Part shown: positions 1-4,045 of the stretch, in pieces
How the letters are laid out: each line of letters opens with the position of its first letter
Position numbering within the stretch: position 1 is the first letter of the stretch
Assembly (NCBI GenBank): GCA_000004985.1
Contig: GG739199.1
DNA: 4,045 nt
Reading direction: 5' to 3' (one strand)
Source of the DNA: Naegleria gruberi
Taxonomy: Eukaryota
Program-made: the position numbers and the translations under genes
The notes under the pieces: generated by a model
What the model was told of the DNA's origin: nothing
Database searches by the model: none
What the model saw: only the letters and a program-made list of their open reading frames with translations

Positions 1-258
1 GCTATTAGCAGCACTTGATGCTCTTTCTCTCTTCTCCTTTATCAAGGCTTGCTTTTTATAACTTCTCTTTTGCATAAAAAAGTAATACATTAATAGTAAA
101 TTAATCAAAACAAGACTAGATGTTGCAAATATATGACTCCACAATTCACCTGCTAACGGTTCATACACTGATTCTCGGAGAAAACTATTAGACACAGACA
201 AGAGAAGGAAAATCAACCAAAACAAGGTTGCATGTACCATCATTATAGATCGTTCCAT
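1..258 (-). CDS. Hypothetical small membrane protein; 5' end of gene, partial (continues beyond window start). Start ATG at 258..256, open for 86 codons to position 1.
   Basis: Reverse-complement translation gives MERSIMMVHATLFWLIFLLLSVSNSFLRESVYEPLAGELWSHIFATSSLVLINLLLMYYFFMQKRSYKKQALIKEKRERASSAANS... with no stop. The frame is closed immediately upstream by taa/tag/tag at about 262..270. The ATG sits in an aaaATGg context. There are two roughly 14-15 residue hydrophobic segments followed by a Lys/Arg/Glu-rich tail. Local GC is higher than in the flanking AT-rich spacer. Chance of 86 stop-free codons at this base composition is roughly 1e-3. Probably absent from the ORF track because it is shorter than the length cutoff or has no stop. 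Confidence 0.45.
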   Translation of the reverse strand, partial: MERSIMMVHATLFWLIFLLLSVSNSFLRESVYEPLAGELWSHIFATSSLVLINLLLMYYFFMQKRSYKKQALIKEKRERASSAANS

Positions 259-289
259 TTTCTACTATTATTCCGATATAATTTAAATT

Positions 290-321
290 ATGATGATGAT
301 ATGAAGATGACGATGATGATG
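290..321. repeat. Imperfect trinucleotide microsatellite: (ATG)3-AT-ATG-AAG-ATG-ACG-(ATG)3, which reads as CAT repeats on the minus strand.
   Basis: Read directly from the sequence. It lies 32-65 nt upstream of the minus-strand ATG at 258. An in-frame stop separates it from that ORF, so it is not coding. Confidence 0.8.
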
Positions 322-428
322 TATTAATAATACGTGTGTTGTATTCAAAATTGAAAAAAAGCTTCACGAAGTAAGTTGAGTATTTTTTTGTTAAATTTTT
401 GTTTGTAGCCTTTTTTGCAATTTCGGAA

Positions 429-434
429 TTTAAT
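429..434 (-). promoter_or_regulatory. Candidate polyadenylation signal variant (ATTAAA on minus strand) for the RCC1-like gene.
   Basis: Plus-strand tttaat at 429..434, about 257 nt downstream of the TAA at 691. No exact AATAAA occurs on the minus strand in this spacer. Weak evidence. Confidence 0.2.
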
Positions 435-466
435 TTCCATTCTCATTCGAATTGGGAGAATTGGAA
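435..466. repeat. Imperfect inverted repeat, ttccattctc / gagaattggaa (10 of 11 positions, one bulge), with an 11-nt spacer containing the ttcgaa palindrome.
   Basis: rc(gagaattggaa) = ttccaattctc, compared with the left arm ttcca-ttctc. It lies in the spacer between the RCC1-like stop (691) and the ATG of the small ORF (258). Confidence 0.5.
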
Positions 467-690
467 CACGAAAATTAAAATGTTAATAAATAATATTCAA
501 TAAATAGCAAGTAACATTCCAAAAATATTTAAATTTAAACAATTTTTTTTTACAATGTATTTAGGAAATCAAATGAAATATCACTCAATTCTGAGGATTG
601 ACTTGCTTGACGAAGCATTGCAATCATGTAGGTTTTTCCTTTTGACATGGCTTTGAAATGGATGATTAAAATGTAGATGAATAGATGAAA

Positions 691-1160
691 TTACTTACCA
701 CCATCAGCAAAATAGACAATCATGTGTTGAAATCCTCCTGTAACAAATGGTGTCTTGTTTGAGAATTTCCTACATAATTCCTCTAATTGAGTACTTCTTT
801 TTACACCTTGACTAGTTTCCATGACTGCTCCCAATTGATTGTTGGAATTATTTCCACAAATGAGTACTTGTCCTGAACGAGTAAGGATAATGGTTTGATA
901 GGTGTGAATACCAACATTGGTAATTTCCTTATAGCACAAATCGTGATTCATTGTCCAATTAGAAACTCTTGAGCTTGGAATTCCAGTCTCACCTGAGCCG
1001 TTATCTCCCCAACAATAGACTTCATCTTGTGATGTTATTGCAATGCCGGAAAGTGATCCACAAAAAATCTTGGAAACAGGTGCATCAATATTCATTCTGG
1101 TCCATGCTGAAGTTGAAGCATTTTCAACTGATTGACCAATACTATACAAATGTCCTCTTC
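691..1160 (-). CDS. RCC1-like repeat (regulator of chromosome condensation / RCC1 beta-propeller) protein. This is the last coding exon including the TAA stop (691..693). The exon begins after the intron acceptor at 1161.
   Basis: Translation contains consecutive RCC1-type repeats: ...RGHLYSIGQSVENAS..., ...SGIAITSQDEVYCWGDNGSGETG..., ...GIHTYQTIILTRSGQVLICGNNSNNQLG..., ...TGGFQHMIVYFADGGK*. These match the family pattern G-x-x-H-T/S-x-x-L-T-x-D-G-x-V-Y/F-x-W-G-x-N-x-x-G-Q-L-G. Ending on 'GGFQHMIVYF' mirrors the C-terminus of RCC1, which ends ...SSGGQHTVLLV plus a short tail. The frame is closed upstream by TAA at 1174..1176, so the exon must start at an acceptor. The ORF track's 'M' at 1149..1147 is a TTG codon, not a real start. 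Confidence 0.8.
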
Positions 1161-1207
1161 CTGTTGTTGAAAATTAATCTCAAATTCAATAATTCACAAC
1201 AACATAC
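1161..1207 (-). other. Predicted 47-nt spliceosomal intron (GTATGT at 1207..1202, through ttttcaacaaCAG ending at 1161) within the RCC1-like gene.
   Basis: The in-frame TAA at 1174..1176 forces an exon boundary. GTATGT and a pyrimidine-rich ...CAG are correctly spaced. Splicing joins ...T-M-V-V-[N/D/H/Y]-R (exon ending at 1208, phase 1) to R-G-H-L-Y-S-I-G-Q, which reconstitutes an RCC1 '...T-x-D-G-x-V-Y-S-x-G' repeat core. An ambiguous base at 1211 lies inside that codon. Confidence 0.5.
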
Positions 1208-1225
1208 TATNTACAACCATTGTGT
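1208..1225 (-). CDS. 3' end of the preceding RCC1-like exon, truncated by the assembly gap.
   Basis: rc(1208..1225) = acacaatggttgtanata, which reads ..T M V V x in the frame that joins across the 47-nt intron. The rest of this exon and all 5' exons must lie within or beyond the N run. Confidence 0.4.
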
Positions 1226-2972
1226 NNNNNNNNNNNNNNNNNNNNNNNNNNNNNNNNNNNNNNNNNNNNNNNNNNNNNNNNNNNNNNNNNNNNNNNNNNN
1301 NNNNNNNNNNNNNNNNNNNNNNNNNNNNNNNNNNNNNNNNNNNNNNNNNNNNNNNNNNNNNNNNNNNNNNNNNNNNNNNNNNNNNNNNNNNNNNNNNNNN
1401 NNNNNNNNNNNNNNNNNNNNNNNNNNNNNNNNNNNNNNNNNNNNNNNNNNNNNNNNNNNNNNNNNNNNNNNNNNNNNNNNNNNNNNNNNNNNNNNNNNNN
1501 NNNNNNNNNNNNNNNNNNNNNNNNNNNNNNNNNNNNNNNNNNNNNNNNNNNNNNNNNNNNNNNNNNNNNNNNNNNNNNNNNNNNNNNNNNNNNNNNNNNN
1601 NNNNNNNNNNNNNNNNNNNNNNNNNNNNNNNNNNNNNNNNNNNNNNNNNNNNNNNNNNNNNNNNNNNNNNNNNNNNNNNNNNNNNNNNNNNNNNNNNNNN
1701 NNNNNNNNNNNNNNNNNNNNNNNNNNNNNNNNNNNNNNNNNNNNNNNNNNNNNNNNNNNNNNNNNNNNNNNNNNNNNNNNNNNNNNNNNNNNNNNNNNNN
1801 NNNNNNNNNNNNNNNNNNNNNNNNNNNNNNNNNNNNNNNNNNNNNNNNNNNNNNNNNNNNNNNNNNNNNNNNNNNNNNNNNNNNNNNNNNNNNNNNNNNN
1901 NNNNNNNNNNNNNNNNNNNNNNNNNNNNNNNNNNNNNNNNNNNNNNNNNNNNNNNNNNNNNNNNNNNNNNNNNNNNNNNNNNNNNNNNNNNNNNNNNNNN
2001 NNNNNNNNNNNNNNNNNNNNNNNNNNNNNNNNNNNNNNNNNNNNNNNNNNNNNNNNNNNNNNNNNNNNNNNNNNNNNNNNNNNNNNNNNNNNNNNNNNNN
2101 NNNNNNNNNNNNNNNNNNNNNNNNNNNNNNNNNNNNNNNNNNNNNNNNNNNNNNNNNNNNNNNNNNNNNNNNNNNNNNNNNNNNNNNNNNNNNNNNNNNN
2201 NNNNNNNNNNNNNNNNNNNNNNNNNNNNNNNNNNNNNNNNNNNNNNNNNNNNNNNNNNNNNNNNNNNNNNNNNNNNNNNNNNNNNNNNNNNNNNNNNNNN
2301 NNNNNNNNNNNNNNNNNNNNNNNNNNNNNNNNNNNNNNNNNNNNNNNNNNNNNNNNNNNNNNNNNNNNNNNNNNNNNNNNNNNNNNNNNNNNNNNNNNNN
2401 NNNNNNNNNNNNNNNNNNNNNNNNNNNNNNNNNNNNNNNNNNNNNNNNNNNNNNNNNNNNNNNNNNNNNNNNNNNNNNNNNNNNNNNNNNNNNNNNNNNN
2501 NNNNNNNNNNNNNNNNNNNNNNNNNNNNNNNNNNNNNNNNNNNNNNNNNNNNNNNNNNNNNNNNNNNNNNNNNNNNNNNNNNNNNNNNNNNNNNNNNNNN
2601 NNNNNNNNNNNNNNNNNNNNNNNNNNNNNNNNNNNNNNNNNNNNNNNNNNNNNNNNNNNNNNNNNNNNNNNNNNNNNNNNNNNNNNNNNNNNNNNNNNNN
2701 NNNNNNNNNNNNNNNNNNNNNNNNNNNNNNNNNNNNNNNNNNNNNNNNNNNNNNNNNNNNNNNNNNNNNNNNNNNNNNNNNNNNNNNNNNNNNNNNNNNN
2801 NNNNNNNNNNNNNNNNNNNNNNNNNNNNNNNNNNNNNNNNNNNNNNNNNNNNNNNNNNNNNNNNNNNNNNNNNNNNNNNNNNNNNNNNNNNNNNNNNNNN
2901 NNNNNNNNNNNNNNNNNNNNNNNNNNNNNNNNNNNNNNNNNNNNNNNNNNNNNNNNNNNNNNNNNNNNNNNN
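1226..2972. other. Assembly gap: run of 1747 N. There is also a single ambiguous base at 1211.
   Basis: Read directly from the sequence. The non-round length suggests a size estimated from paired reads. Every plus-strand ORF in the track that crosses it is poly-X. Confidence 1.
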
Positions 2973-3505: not shown

Positions 3506-3537
3506 CAGGTCCTGATAATCGAAAAATCGAGGACCTG
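3506..3537. repeat. Perfect 8-bp inverted repeat, CAGGTCCT ... AGGACCTG, with a 16-nt spacer that is itself a direct repeat (aatcga aa aatcga).
   Basis: Arms are at 3506..3513 and 3530..3537. Flanking direct repeats cctgat occur at 3511..3516 and 3534..3539. It lies in the 3' flank (presumed 3' UTR) of the minus-strand gene, between the stop and the AATAAA. Confidence 0.75.
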
Positions 3538-3663
3538 ATTTGTTCAAAACCTATGCTCAAAACTCAACACCTTGATTTTTTACAAACACAGACCTCAGCC
3601 AATCATTAGGGATAACATTATATTTAAAAAAAGGTTGAATAAATTTCAATAATTTGGTAGAAT

Positions 3664-4045
3664 TTAATGTTCACATAATGAGAATTCTCTTTCGTATAAT
3701 TCATTTTGTTCATCCCTTTTGTACTTTCTACTCTCCATCAATTGCTCACGAACCTCTTCGGCTTGTGCCTTACTCATCAAAGGAAGGAATGGAATAATCT
3801 CCTTAATAAGAATTGGATAAGGTAACTTTTTAACGAGAGGGAATGCATTCGAAATGGCAGCATCTCTCCTCTGATTATCAATGTTTGAAGTTGAAACAAT
3901 TGGCTTTTCTGGATCAACAAAGAAAAAGACAAGAATTTTTCTGGTGGCAACCTCAGTTGGATCCTTTGGGAAGAAATGTCTAACTCTGTGTTGATGGGTA
4001 TTGGGAAGAAGATACATTTTCCTTCTGTGGTTTGACATTCCCAAA
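3664..4045 (-). CDS. 3'-terminal coding exon of a gene for a protein I cannot assign to a family. It is partial: the frame is open to the window end, and the TAA stop is at 3664..3666.
   Basis: 126-codon open frame: ..GMSNHRRKMYLLPNTHQHRVRHFFPKDPTEVATRKILVFFFVDPEKPIVSTSNIDNQRRDAAISNAFPLVKKLPYPILIKEIIPFLPLMSKAQAEEVREQLMESRKYKRDEQNELYEREFSLCEH*. Composition is protein-like, the frame is stop-free in AT-rich DNA, the C-terminus is a charged helical tail, and a downstream AATAAA is present. The leading 'M' in the track is a TTG at the window edge, not a start. The segment KMYLLPN..HRVRHFFPKDPTEVATRKILVFFFVDPEKP weakly resembles a beta-grasp (ubiquitin-like or Ras-association-like) strand-hairpin-helix-strand pattern. 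That is an impression, not an assignment. Confidence 0.6.
   Translation of the reverse strand, partial: LGMSNHRRKMYLLPNTHQHRVRHFFPKDPTEVATRKILVFFFVDPEKPIVSTSNIDNQRRDAAISNAFPLVKKLPYPILIKEIIPFLPLMSKAQAEEVREQLMESRKYKRDEQNELYEREFSLCEH

What the first reader, a model, noticed from the sequence alone, without database searches (positions are those of the whole stretch)
1..258. Uncalled 86-codon minus-strand ORF encoding a two-helix membrane mini-protein, starting at ATG 258
It is the longest stop-free frame in the left arm but is not in the supplied track (partial, and under about 100 aa). It begins at an ATG in an A-rich Kozak-like context (aaaATGg), directly after three in-frame stops. It encodes two clear hydrophobic helices (ATLFWLIFLLLSVS and SSLVLINLLLMYYFF) and then a K/R/E-rich cytosolic-looking tail. 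The region is visibly less AT-rich than the spacer around it. It lies only about 430 nt downstream of the RCC1-like stop on the same strand, which suggests compact gene spacing. Small two-TM proteins of this shape are often missed by annotation. Examples are signal-peptidase, OST or DPM accessory subunits, which I name as analogies only.
Basis: seen in the sequence. Interest (0 to 1): 0.5.

Follow-up and report, generated by a model that had tools for sequence, protein, structure and literature searches.

The report
Start of annotated Naegleria membrane-protein gene
The open frame is real, but it is only the first 86 codons of an already annotated 217-residue, four-helix membrane protein of Naegleria gruberi (NAEGRDRAFT_74380), cut off by the edge of the window; the protein belongs to an uncharacterised family that is otherwise found in bacteria and archaea.

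Summary
The minus-strand frame 258..1 is open for 86 codons. It starts at ATG 258-256 in an aaaATGg context, directly after TAA-TAG-TAG, and encodes two hydrophobic helices. Its GC is about 34%, against 26% in the spacer.

The peptide is 100% identical to residues 1-86 of the Naegleria gruberi predicted protein XP_002670634.1 (NAEGRDRAFT_74380, 217 aa). A near-identical metagenome contig carries the whole gene as one uninterrupted 217-codon ORF. So this is neither an uncalled gene nor a two-helix mini-protein. It is the N-terminal half of a four-TM protein: TM1, a conserved outer loop, TM2 and the start of a cytosolic loop.

Selection is purifying:
- There are 2 synonymous and 0 non-synonymous differences between the two N. 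gruberi-like sequences.
- dN/dS against a 66%-identical ortholog is about 0.06.

Relatives are a Naegleria-like ortholog, a Willaertia magna protein, and hundreds of roughly 130-aa bacterial and archaeal "hypothetical proteins". None has a Pfam or NCBIfam model or a solved structure, and there is no conserved gene neighbour. The Ost5, signal-peptidase-subunit and DPM2 analogies fail, and so does the RCC1-exon idea.

Biochemical function remains unknown. My best inference is a polar ligand or catalytic pocket at the lumenal membrane face.

The parts
1..258 (-). Partial CDS: codons 1-86 of the 217-codon gene NAEGRDRAFT_74380 (Naegleria gruberi predicted protein). The remaining 131 codons lie beyond the left edge of the window.
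   Evidence: Open frame. 100% identity and 100% coverage to P0009, 217 aa. Collinear with L003:201-458, where the ORF continues without interruption to 854.
256..258 (-). Start codon ATG in an AAAATGG context.
   Evidence: The Naegleria-like (P0002) and Willaertia (P0003) orthologs start at the aligned methionine.
262..270 (-). Three consecutive in-frame stop codons (TAA TAG TAG) one codon upstream of the ATG. They rule out an N-terminal extension in this frame.
190..246 (-). TM helix 1 (about residues 5-23). It contains the nearly invariant family residue W14.
   Evidence: KD peak 2.17. AF2 helix 2-36 with pLDDT 87-96. Family conservation.
133..189 (-). Conserved extracytoplasmic/lumenal hairpin turn, residues 24-42 (N24-S-F-L-R28-E-S-V-Y32-E-P-L-A-G-E38-L-W-S-H42). 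This is the family's N-terminal signature.
   Evidence: R28 is invariant; N24, Y32 and H42 are at least 90% conserved in 118 sequences. AF2 pLDDT 95-96. The sidedness is inferred from the positive-inside rule.
73..132 (-). TM helix 2 (about residues 43-62).
   Evidence: KD peak 1.89. AF2 helix 38-89.
1..72 (-). Start of the basic, probably cytosolic TM2-TM3 loop (residues 63-86, QKRSYKKQALIKEKRERASSAANS). From about residue 77 it enters a 30-residue Ser/Asn/Thr-rich insert found only in the two N. gruberi-type sequences (P0009, P0124).
   Evidence: Alignment with P0002 and P0003. pLDDT falls to 58-62 over residues 91-110.
291..321 (-). Imperfect (CAT)n trinucleotide repeat in the 5' flank, 33-63 nt upstream of the ATG. 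Its length differs between the window and L003. It lies in the promoter or 5'UTR, not in coding sequence.
   Evidence: A 3-nt indel is seen in the alignment.

Best explanation
Window 258..1 (minus strand) is the 5' part of a single-exon, independently transcribed Naegleria gruberi gene, NAEGRDRAFT_74380.

Shown:
- The gene encodes a 217-residue integral membrane protein with four transmembrane helices.
- The window holds TM1, a tightly conserved loop (N24, R28, Y32, E38, H42), TM2, and the first 24 residues of an expanded basic TM2-TM3 loop.
- TM3 (about 122-142, with invariant G126 and E137) and TM4 (about 170-191, with P183) lie off the window.
- The gene is real, under purifying selection, and belongs to a widespread uncharacterised prokaryote-type four-TM family.

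Inferred:
- Topology is N-in/C-in, because the basic loop and the basic C-terminus follow the positive-inside rule.
- All family-conserved polar residues then sit together at the lumenal or extracytoplasmic membrane interface.
- The C-terminal KKTM fits a KKXX ER-retrieval signal.

Most likely way of working (inference, about 0.25-0.3 on its own): a compact four-helix bundle whose conserved Asn/Arg/Tyr/Glu/His cluster forms a small binding or catalytic pocket at the outer-leaflet/lumenal interface. It would act on a lipid or a lipid-soluble small molecule and work alone rather than in a complex encoded by neighbouring genes.

The confidence given (0.93) applies to the identity and anatomy, not to this functional inference.
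For: Identity:
- 100% identity over all 86 residues to P0009, 217 aa, 'predicted protein [Naegleria gruberi]'.
- Its accessions are XP_002670634.1, EFC37890.1, D2VZ70 and NAEGRDRAFT_74380.

Continuation and single exon:
- L003:201-854 is an uninterrupted 217-codon ORF on a near-identical ENA contig.
- The other two forward frames of that ORF hold 18 and 19 stops.

Selection:
- Window against L003 shows 2 synonymous and 0 non-synonymous differences in 258 nt. The 200 nt upstream show about 10 substitutions and 3 indels.
- N. gruberi-like sequence against the L002 ortholog gives pN 0.21, pS 0.75 and dN/dS about 0.06.

Family:
- Exhaustive phmmer gave P0002 at 1.7e-26, Willaertia P0003 at 2.3e-9, and four hits of prokaryotic type (three of 145-162 aa and a 79-aa fragment).
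- A profile search found 262 proteins.
- At least 331 GTDB species genomes across many bacterial and archaeal phyla encode a relative.
- Conserved columns were listed.

Structure:
- The AF2 model of P0009 has pLDDT 85.4 and pTM 0.76, with four long helices and one short one.
- The AF2 model of the prokaryotic member P0017 has pLDDT 95.4 and pTM 0.87.

Solitary gene: among 76 upstream and 78 downstream neighbours, no Pfam family recurs more than 4 times. Individual contexts were seen.
Against: - No transcript or protein evidence could be consulted.
- The biochemical role has no direct support. There is no Pfam or NCBIfam match, no PDB sequence relative, only generic helical fold matches and no informative gene neighbourhood.
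- Both Naegleria-type orthologs (N. gruberi P0009 and the Naegleria-like P0002) have lost several nearly invariant family residues: G25 to S, A41 to S, S45 to A, the His of FGH to W, and the DY and GR-W motifs. They may not do what the prokaryotic proteins do.
- The KKXX motif is not conserved in P0002 (…TKTK) or Willaertia (…KKRTH).
- Topology and sidedness are inferred, not measured.
Confidence: 0.93

Rival explanations
1. A free-standing two-TM mini-protein of about 90-100 aa, comparable to Ost5/TMEM258, a signal-peptidase subunit or DPM2.
For: The 86 codons in the window contain exactly two hydrophobic helices followed by a charged stretch. There is a sub-threshold Ost5 hit, E=0.28.
Against: - The identical N. 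gruberi protein is 217 aa with two further TM helices.
- L003 shows the frame continuing for 131 more codons.
- The complete relatives have four TM helices; only the 79-aa fragment P0004 is shorter.
- Ost5 scores 11.9 bits against a cutoff of 27.4, and no signal-peptidase-subunit or DPM2 model is listed at E<=1.
Confidence: 0.02
2. A chance open frame in AT-rich spacer, with no gene.
For: In 3000 shuffles of bases 1-690, 4.6% give an open frame of at least 86 codons. The first word-index homology search found nothing.
Against: - There is an exact match to an annotated protein.
- Orthologs at 66% and 41% identity exist in other heteroloboseans, and the family is large.
- dN/dS is about 0.06.
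- Only synonymous differences separate the window from L003.
- The AF2 model is confident.
Confidence: 0.01
3. A downstream exon of the RCC1-like gene (691-1149, same strand), joined by splicing.
For: It is on the same strand and only about 290-430 nt downstream. A GTAAGT donor-like site overlaps the RCC1 stop codon (698-693).
Against: - Three in-frame stops lie immediately upstream of the ATG.
- Orthologs P0002 and P0003 begin at the aligned Met and have no RCC1 domain.
- In L002 the upstream neighbour is a different gene on the opposite strand.
- The public model for the 217-aa protein starts at this ATG.
- Prokaryotic relatives of about 120-160 aa align with the protein from TM1 to TM4.
Confidence: 0.01
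4. Helix 1 is a cleavable signal peptide (…SVSNS|F…), which would make a single-pass type I protein with a roughly 20-residue ectodomain.
For: The layout is n-h-c-like: MERS, a hydrophobic core, then small residues S-N-S before F26 (read by eye, no signal-peptide predictor was available).
Against: - Helix 1 carries family-conserved W14, and N24 sits at the would-be cleavage site.
- AF2 packs helix 1 into the four-helix bundle at pLDDT 87-96.
- A cleavage site before F26 would fall inside the most conserved motif (N24…R28).
Confidence: 0.04
5. A decaying relic of a bacterial gene transfer (pseudogene) rather than a working gene.
For: Eukaryotic occurrence is restricted. Several nearly invariant family residues are lost in both Naegleria-type orthologs.
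Against: - The 217-codon frame is intact in both N. gruberi-type sequences (the annotated protein P0009 and the ORF on L003), and there is a 181-codon ortholog.
- Purifying selection is strong.
- The core residues are retained: W14, N24, R28, Y32, E38, H42, G126, W129, E137 and P183.
Confidence: 0.03

Closest known systems
Naegleria gruberi predicted protein NAEGRDRAFT_74380 (XP_002670634.1 / EFC37890.1 / UniProt D2VZ70), 217 aa
   Same: Residues 1-86 are identical to the window peptide. This is the gene itself.
   Different: Nothing differs within the window. The window simply lacks codons 87-217.
Unnamed four-TM family of about 120-160-aa bacterial and archaeal 'hypothetical proteins' (for example Methanococcoides sp. 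FTZ1 P0122, Nitrosomonadales MAG P0028, Gallionella P0121), with no Pfam or NCBIfam model
   Same: - Four TM helices.
- The signature W…N-G-x2-R-x3-Y-G…E-L-x-A-H-Q-I-S in the first half and G-x2-W…F-E-F-x-F-G-H…W…Y…G-R-x-W…P in the second.
- The Naegleria protein keeps W14, N24, R28, Y32, E38, H42, G126, W129, E137 and P183.
   Different: - The Naegleria protein has a much expanded TM2-TM3 loop (about 60 residues, including a 30-residue low-complexity insert not found in the other relatives).
- It has a roughly 9-residue insert after TM3 and a 25-residue charged C-terminal helix ending in KKTM.
- It has lost the FGH His and the DY and GR-W motifs.
Pfam DUF2177 (PF09945), an uncharacterised membrane protein family of about 124 aa linked in the literature to heliorhodopsin neighbourhoods and singlet-oxygen responses
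   Same: - Similar size and predicted membrane nature.
- 6 of 117 family members give weak, in-register, sub-threshold hits. P0017 residues 17-60 match profile positions 14-57, and the best E-value is 0.013.
- One Methanococcoides locus places the family next to photolyase, UvdE, SOUL and MsrA/MsrB.
- DUF2177 is described as uncharacterised and as a neighbour of heliorhodopsin genes (bioRxiv 10.1101/2021.02.16.431466), and a DUF2177 gene appears in a table of singlet-oxygen-induced genes in Chlamydomonas (PMC4067076).
   Different: - No member reaches the gathering score of 26.9 bits.
- The window peptide and P0009 give no DUF2177 hit at all.
- DUF2177's own function is unknown, so even true kinship would not name a function.
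Ost5/TMEM258, signal-peptidase subunit, DPM2
   Same: Small, hydrophobic, probably ER-located proteins with a helical hairpin.
LucB, the four-TM accessory protein of the mycobacterial Mce1 transporter (PDB 8fed chain K)
   Different: Scores are in the range of generic helical bundles (Foldseek E=3.7, probability 0.44). Sequence identity is 10-13%. No Mce or YrbE genes were seen among the neighbours.

Membership tests
NAEGRDRAFT_74380 (the annotated N. gruberi gene) | Sequence identity of the encoded peptide to the annotated protein from its first residue | tested here: met
   100% identity and 100% query coverage over 86 aa. Sequence shown, accessions.
NAEGRDRAFT_74380 (the annotated N. gruberi gene) | The frame continues to a 217-codon product without an intron | tested here: met
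   L003:201-854 is an uninterrupted ORF whose product differs from P0009 at one residue (G90A). This was tested on a near-identical contig, not on the window's own scaffold.
Unnamed prokaryote-type four-TM family (P0005-P0123) | N-terminal signature: W in TM1, N-G-x2-R-x3-Y at the end of helix 1, and E…A-H at the start of helix 2 | tested here: met
   W14, N24, R28 (invariant), Y32, E38 and H42 are present in the window peptide. G25 is S and A41 is S. phmmer E-values to prokaryotic members are 2e-4 to 7e-4 with the 86 aa alone. The full protein scores 2.4e-39 against the profile, which included its own N-terminus.
Unnamed prokaryote-type four-TM family (P0005-P0123) | C-terminal signature: G-x2-W…F-E-F-x-F-G-H…W…D-Y…G-R-x-W…P across TM3, a short helix and TM4 | tested here: inconclusive
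   This part lies outside the window. In full-length P0009, G126, W129, E137, the W of S-W and P183 are kept. The FGH His (to W), DY and GR-W are not. Willaertia keeps the GH.
Unnamed prokaryote-type four-TM family (P0005-P0123) | Four-helix membrane bundle fold | tested here: met
   AF2 models: P0009 pLDDT 85.4 with helices 2-36, 38-89, 99-150, 157-163 and 169-216. P0017 pLDDT 95.4 with the same order of elements. These are predictions, not experiment.
Pfam DUF2177 (PF09945) | Score at or above the Pfam gathering threshold (26.9 bits) | tested here: not met
   The window peptide and P0009 give no hit. 6 of 117 family members give sub-threshold hits, best E 0.013.
Ost5/TMEM258 (PF05251) | Score at or above the Pfam gathering threshold (27.4 bits), and a two-TM protein of about 70-80 aa | tested here: not met
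   11.9 bits, E=0.28. The protein is 217 aa with four TM helices.
Signal-peptidase subunit / DPM2 type two-TM subunits | A match to the corresponding Pfam model | tested here: not met
   No such family was listed for the peptide even at E<=1, nor for P0002 or P0003. That Pfam-A holds models for these two families is from memory, not checked here.
RCC1-like gene (exon membership) | A reading frame that can be reached by splicing from the upstream RCC1 exons, and RCC1 repeats in orthologs | tested here: not met
   Three in-frame stops precede the ATG. Orthologs start at the same Met and carry no RCC1 domain. The upstream neighbour in L002 is different.
KKXX-retrieved ER membrane proteins | Lys at positions -3 and -4 of a cytosolic C-terminus, and measured ER localisation | not testable with these tools
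   P0009 ends …EKKTM, which fits KKXX by eye. The motif is not conserved in P0002 or P0003. Localisation and the sidedness of the C-terminus are untested.

The most novel reading that the evidence does not exclude
The gene descends from a horizontal transfer of an uncharacterised prokaryotic four-TM family into an ancestor of the vahlkampfiid Heterolobosea (Naegleria and Willaertia). It was then 'eukaryotised' with a long cytosolic helical loop and, in N. gruberi, a dilysine ER-retrieval tail. The family as a whole, possibly a distant relative of DUF2177, would be an unrecognised membrane enzyme or ligand-binding module with an Asn/Arg/Tyr/Glu/His site at the outer membrane face.
Probability: 0.35. 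Interest if true: 0.35.

Novelty: already known. Interest (0 to 1): 0.18.

Why it matters
For the genome scan, this finding is an edge artefact. A truncated copy of an annotated gene looked like a missed mini-ORF. Nothing new needs to be called, and the mini-protein idea should be dropped.

The residual interest is modest. The gene belongs to a widespread protein family with no Pfam or NCBIfam model, no solved structure and no conserved operon partner. At least 331 prokaryotic species genomes carry a relative. Among eukaryotes it turned up only in Naegleria, a Naegleria-like organism and Willaertia. That makes it a small but clean candidate for defining a new domain family and for a study of prokaryote-to-heterolobosean gene transfer.

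Tried and rejected
1. Word-index homology search with the 86-aa peptide found nothing, even though an exact match exists in the same database. That negative was a limit of the tool, not biology. The exhaustive phmmer search and the profile search recovered the family.

2. Pfam and NCBIfam scans of the peptide, the orthologs and all 117 aligned members gave only sub-threshold noise.

3. A profile search against PDB sequences gave one hit at E=0.93, which is meaningless.

5. Gene-neighbourhood analysis used 7 hand-inspected prokaryotic loci and 80 GTDB loci with crude ORF calls. No neighbour recurs: the maxima are OmpA in 3 of 76 upstream genes and OmdA in 4 of 78 downstream genes. The photolyase/UvdE/SOUL/Msr context in Methanococcoides, and the flavin-reductase or flavodoxin-like neighbours in two loci, are single cases.

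6. Extending the window through the RCC1-like gene reached only a 1-kb contig (L001) that stops 219 nt past the RCC1 stop. The extension came instead from P0124 and L003.

7. An exact look-up of P0009 on contigs found no record.

8. Literature searches for NAEGRDRAFT_74380, PRJEB11402, SRR29240419 and ERR1078381 found no papers.

9. No tRNA or Rfam family was found in the window.

Full report
**1. Observation**

On the minus strand the window reads …TAA TAG TAG AAA ATG GAA CGA…. It then stays open for 86 codons until it runs off the left edge. The start codon is at 258-256, and the three in-frame stops are at 270-262.

- The other five frames of bases 1-300 are full of stops.
- The peptide is MERSIMMVHATLFWLIFLLLSVSNSFLRESVYEPLAGELWSHIFATSSLVLINLLLMYYFFMQKRSYKKQALIKEKRERASSAANS.
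- It has two hydrophobic segments. Kyte-Doolittle 19-residue maxima are 2.17 at residues 4-23 and 1.89 at residues 43-61.
- ORF GC is 0.33-0.35 at each codon position, against 0.257 in the 259-690 spacer.
- The RCC1-like ORF (691-1149, minus; Pfam RCC1_2 at 4.7e-13) has its stop 432 nt upstream of the ATG.

Length alone is not compelling: 4.6% of shuffles of bases 1-690 give an open frame of at least 86 codons somewhere. A fixed frame of the shuffled 258 nt stays open in only 0.08% of trials.

**2. What it is**

The first, word-indexed protein search found nothing. An exhaustive phmmer search of 1.84 billion representatives found six relatives:

- a 181-aa protein, P0002, at 66% identity and E=1.7e-26;
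- a 163-aa protein, P0003, at 41% identity and E=2.3e-9, later identified as Willaertia magna KAL9655305.1;
- four proteins of prokaryotic type, 79-162 aa.

All complete relatives are about twice as long as the window peptide and contain four hydrophobic helices.

A profile search with this alignment returned 262 proteins. Among them was P0009, a 217-aa "predicted protein [Naegleria gruberi]" that matches the window peptide at 100% identity over 100% of its length. Its accessions are XP_002670634.1, EFC37890.1, UniProt D2VZ70 and locus tag NAEGRDRAFT_74380.

The window therefore comes from N. gruberi, and the "uncalled ORF" is the first 86 codons of an annotated gene.

**3. Extension beyond the window**

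A cluster member, P0124, differs from P0009 by one residue (G90A). It lies on a 2.6-kb ENA metagenome contig, L003, as an uninterrupted ORF at 201-854.

- Window 458..1 (minus strand) aligns collinearly with L003:1-458.
- The gene has no intron in that near-identical sequence.
- It ends …LNELQHAEQEKKTM-stop.

**4. Evidence that it is a working gene**

- Within the 258 nt shared by the window and L003 there are two differences, and both are synonymous: codon 4 TCT/TCC and codon 86 AGC/AGT.
- The 200 nt upstream carry about ten substitutions and three indels.
- Against the 66%-identical ortholog on L002 (a eukaryotic contig, since its neighbour is a P4-type lipid-flippase ATPase), Nei-Gojobori counts give pN 0.21 and pS 0.75. 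That is dN/dS of about 0.06, with dS near saturation.

**5. Not an exon of the RCC1-like gene**

- Three stops precede the ATG.
- The Naegleria-like and Willaertia orthologs begin at the aligned Met and have no RCC1 domain.
- In L002 the upstream neighbour is a different gene on the other strand.

**6. Anatomy**

AlphaFold2 with a 118-sequence alignment gives a confident model of P0009, with mean pLDDT 85.4 and pTM 0.76. Helices are at 2-36, 38-89, 99-150, 157-163 and 169-216. The first 80 residues have pLDDT 87-96. A compact prokaryotic member, P0017, gives pLDDT 95.4 and pTM 0.87 with the same order of elements.

Across the family:

- R28, G126 and E137 (P0009 numbering) are invariant.
- W14, N24, G25, Y32, A41, H42, S45, W129, the FEF-x-F-G-H block, a W, a Y, G-R-x-W and P183 are at least 90% conserved.

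The window encodes:

- TM1 (window 246-190);
- the conserved N24…H42 hairpin turn (189-133);
- TM2 (132-73);
- the start of the basic TM2-TM3 loop (72-1).

In the two N. gruberi-type sequences (P0009, P0124) that loop is enlarged by a 30-residue Ser/Asn/Thr-rich insert. The insert is absent from P0002 and poorly modelled, with pLDDT 58-62.

By the positive-inside rule (inference) the basic loop and the C-terminus are cytosolic. That places all conserved polar residues at the lumenal or extracytoplasmic membrane interface. The C-terminal KKTM fits a KKXX ER-retrieval motif, but it is not conserved in P0002 (…TKTK) or Willaertia (…KKRTH).

A cleavable signal peptide reading of helix 1 is unlikely. 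The helix carries conserved W14, N24 sits at the would-be cleavage site, and helix 1 is packed into the bundle.

**7. Function**

Nothing known matches.

- Pfam and NCBIfam give only sub-threshold noise for the peptide, the orthologs and all 117 aligned members.
- The only recurrent weak hit is DUF2177, in 6 of 117 members, with best E 0.013 and in register over TM1-TM2.
- DUF2177 is itself uncharacterised. It is described as a neighbour of heliorhodopsin genes (bioRxiv 10.1101/2021.02.16.431466), and a DUF2177 gene appears in a table of singlet-oxygen-induced genes in Chlamydomonas (PMC4067076).
- No PDB chain is related by sequence.

Gene context in prokaryotes is uninformative.

- Seven inspected loci share no neighbour.
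- In 80 GTDB loci spanning many bacterial and archaeal phyla, the commonest Pfam family occurs only 3 times among 76 upstream neighbours and 4 times among 78 downstream neighbours.
- The family thus behaves as a solitary gene.

My best mechanistic inference is a self-sufficient four-helix bundle. Its conserved Asn/Arg/Tyr/Glu/His cluster would form a small ligand-binding or catalytic pocket at the outer membrane face, acting on a lipid or a lipid-soluble molecule. I hold this at roughly 0.25-0.3.

Both Naegleria-type orthologs (P0009 and P0002) have lost the FGH His and the DY and GR-W motifs. They may therefore have a modified role.

**8. Distribution**

One motif scan found at least 331 GTDB species genomes encoding a relative. 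They include Patescibacteria, Chloroflexota, Ignavibacteriota, Gammaproteobacteria, Desulfobacterota, Bacteroidota, cyanobacteria, Thermoplasmata, Halobacteriota, Methanococcoides and Archaeoglobaceae.

The only eukaryotic members seen are N. gruberi, the Naegleria-like L002 organism and Willaertia magna. This pattern is compatible with a prokaryote-to-heterolobosean transfer, but I did not test it phylogenetically.

**9. Verdict**

- Novelty: already known as a gene model. The function of its family is unknown.
- Interest is low for the scan, with a minor lead on an undescribed domain family and possible gene transfer.

Noticed in passing
window 1226-2972 and 1211: A 1747-base run of N (assembly gap) interrupts the RCC1-like gene, and there is a single N at 1211. 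The near-identical contig L001 has A at that single position and supplies about 280 nt of upstream RCC1 exon that fall inside the gap.
   Followed up: partly
window 591-698 (minus strand): The RCC1-like ORF's stop (TAA 693-691) sits inside a perfect GTAAGT donor-like site (698-693). A CAG acceptor-like site lies at 593-591. Splicing there (a 108-nt intron) would replace the C-terminal …DGGK* with …DGELSDISFDFLNTL* and move the stop to 552-550, just before an A9 run. I could not decide which 3' end is used.
   Followed up: partly
window about 1150-1212 (minus strand): A short AT-rich interruption of about 55-60 nt with GT…CAG ends separates two RCC1-repeat coding blocks. Together with the upstream exon in L001, this looks like a small intron.
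   Followed up: partly
window 291-321; L003 about 150-175: An imperfect (CAT)n trinucleotide repeat lies 33-63 nt upstream of the ATG. It differs by a 3-nt indel between the window and the metagenome contig, so it is a polymorphic microsatellite in the 5' flank.
   Followed up: partly
window 3664-4044 (minus strand): A 126-codon ORF lies at the right edge. Its residues 9-61 match the last 58 positions of Pfam DUF4246 (E=4.3e-12). It is the C-terminal end of another gene cut by the window.
   Followed up: partly
L001 and L003 (ENA assembly ERZ929261, run ERR1078381, project PRJEB11402): A public 'metagenome' contains contigs about 99% identical to this N. gruberi region, in both the RCC1-like gene and the four-TM gene. 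That sample evidently holds a second N. gruberi strain or a very close relative. No paper mentioning the project was found.
   Followed up: partly
L004:1-6399 (Methanococcoides sp. FTZ1, CP195121.1): The archaeal family member lies at the end of a same-strand run: UvrB, UvdE, SOUL, DNA photolyase, a 188-aa protein of unknown family, then the four-TM gene. MsrA and MsrB are nearby. This light and oxidative-damage context was not seen in the other loci examined.
   Followed up: partly
L003:960-1739 and 1847-2560 (minus strand): Downstream of the gene in the N. gruberi-like contig are two convergent ORFs of 259 and 237 aa with no Pfam match. The second ends in a TM helix followed by RKKKKYAYIQ, which looks like a single-pass membrane protein.
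   Followed up: no
(tool behaviour): The word-index search with the single 86-aa peptide missed a 100%-identical database protein that the profile search later returned. Negative results from that tool with short hydrophobic queries should not be trusted.
   Followed up: no
window 3506-3538: A short inverted repeat, AGGTCCT…AGGACCT, has arms 17 nt apart and lies in the AT-rich spacer between the gap and the DUF4246 gene. No RNA family or tRNA was found there.
   Followed up: no
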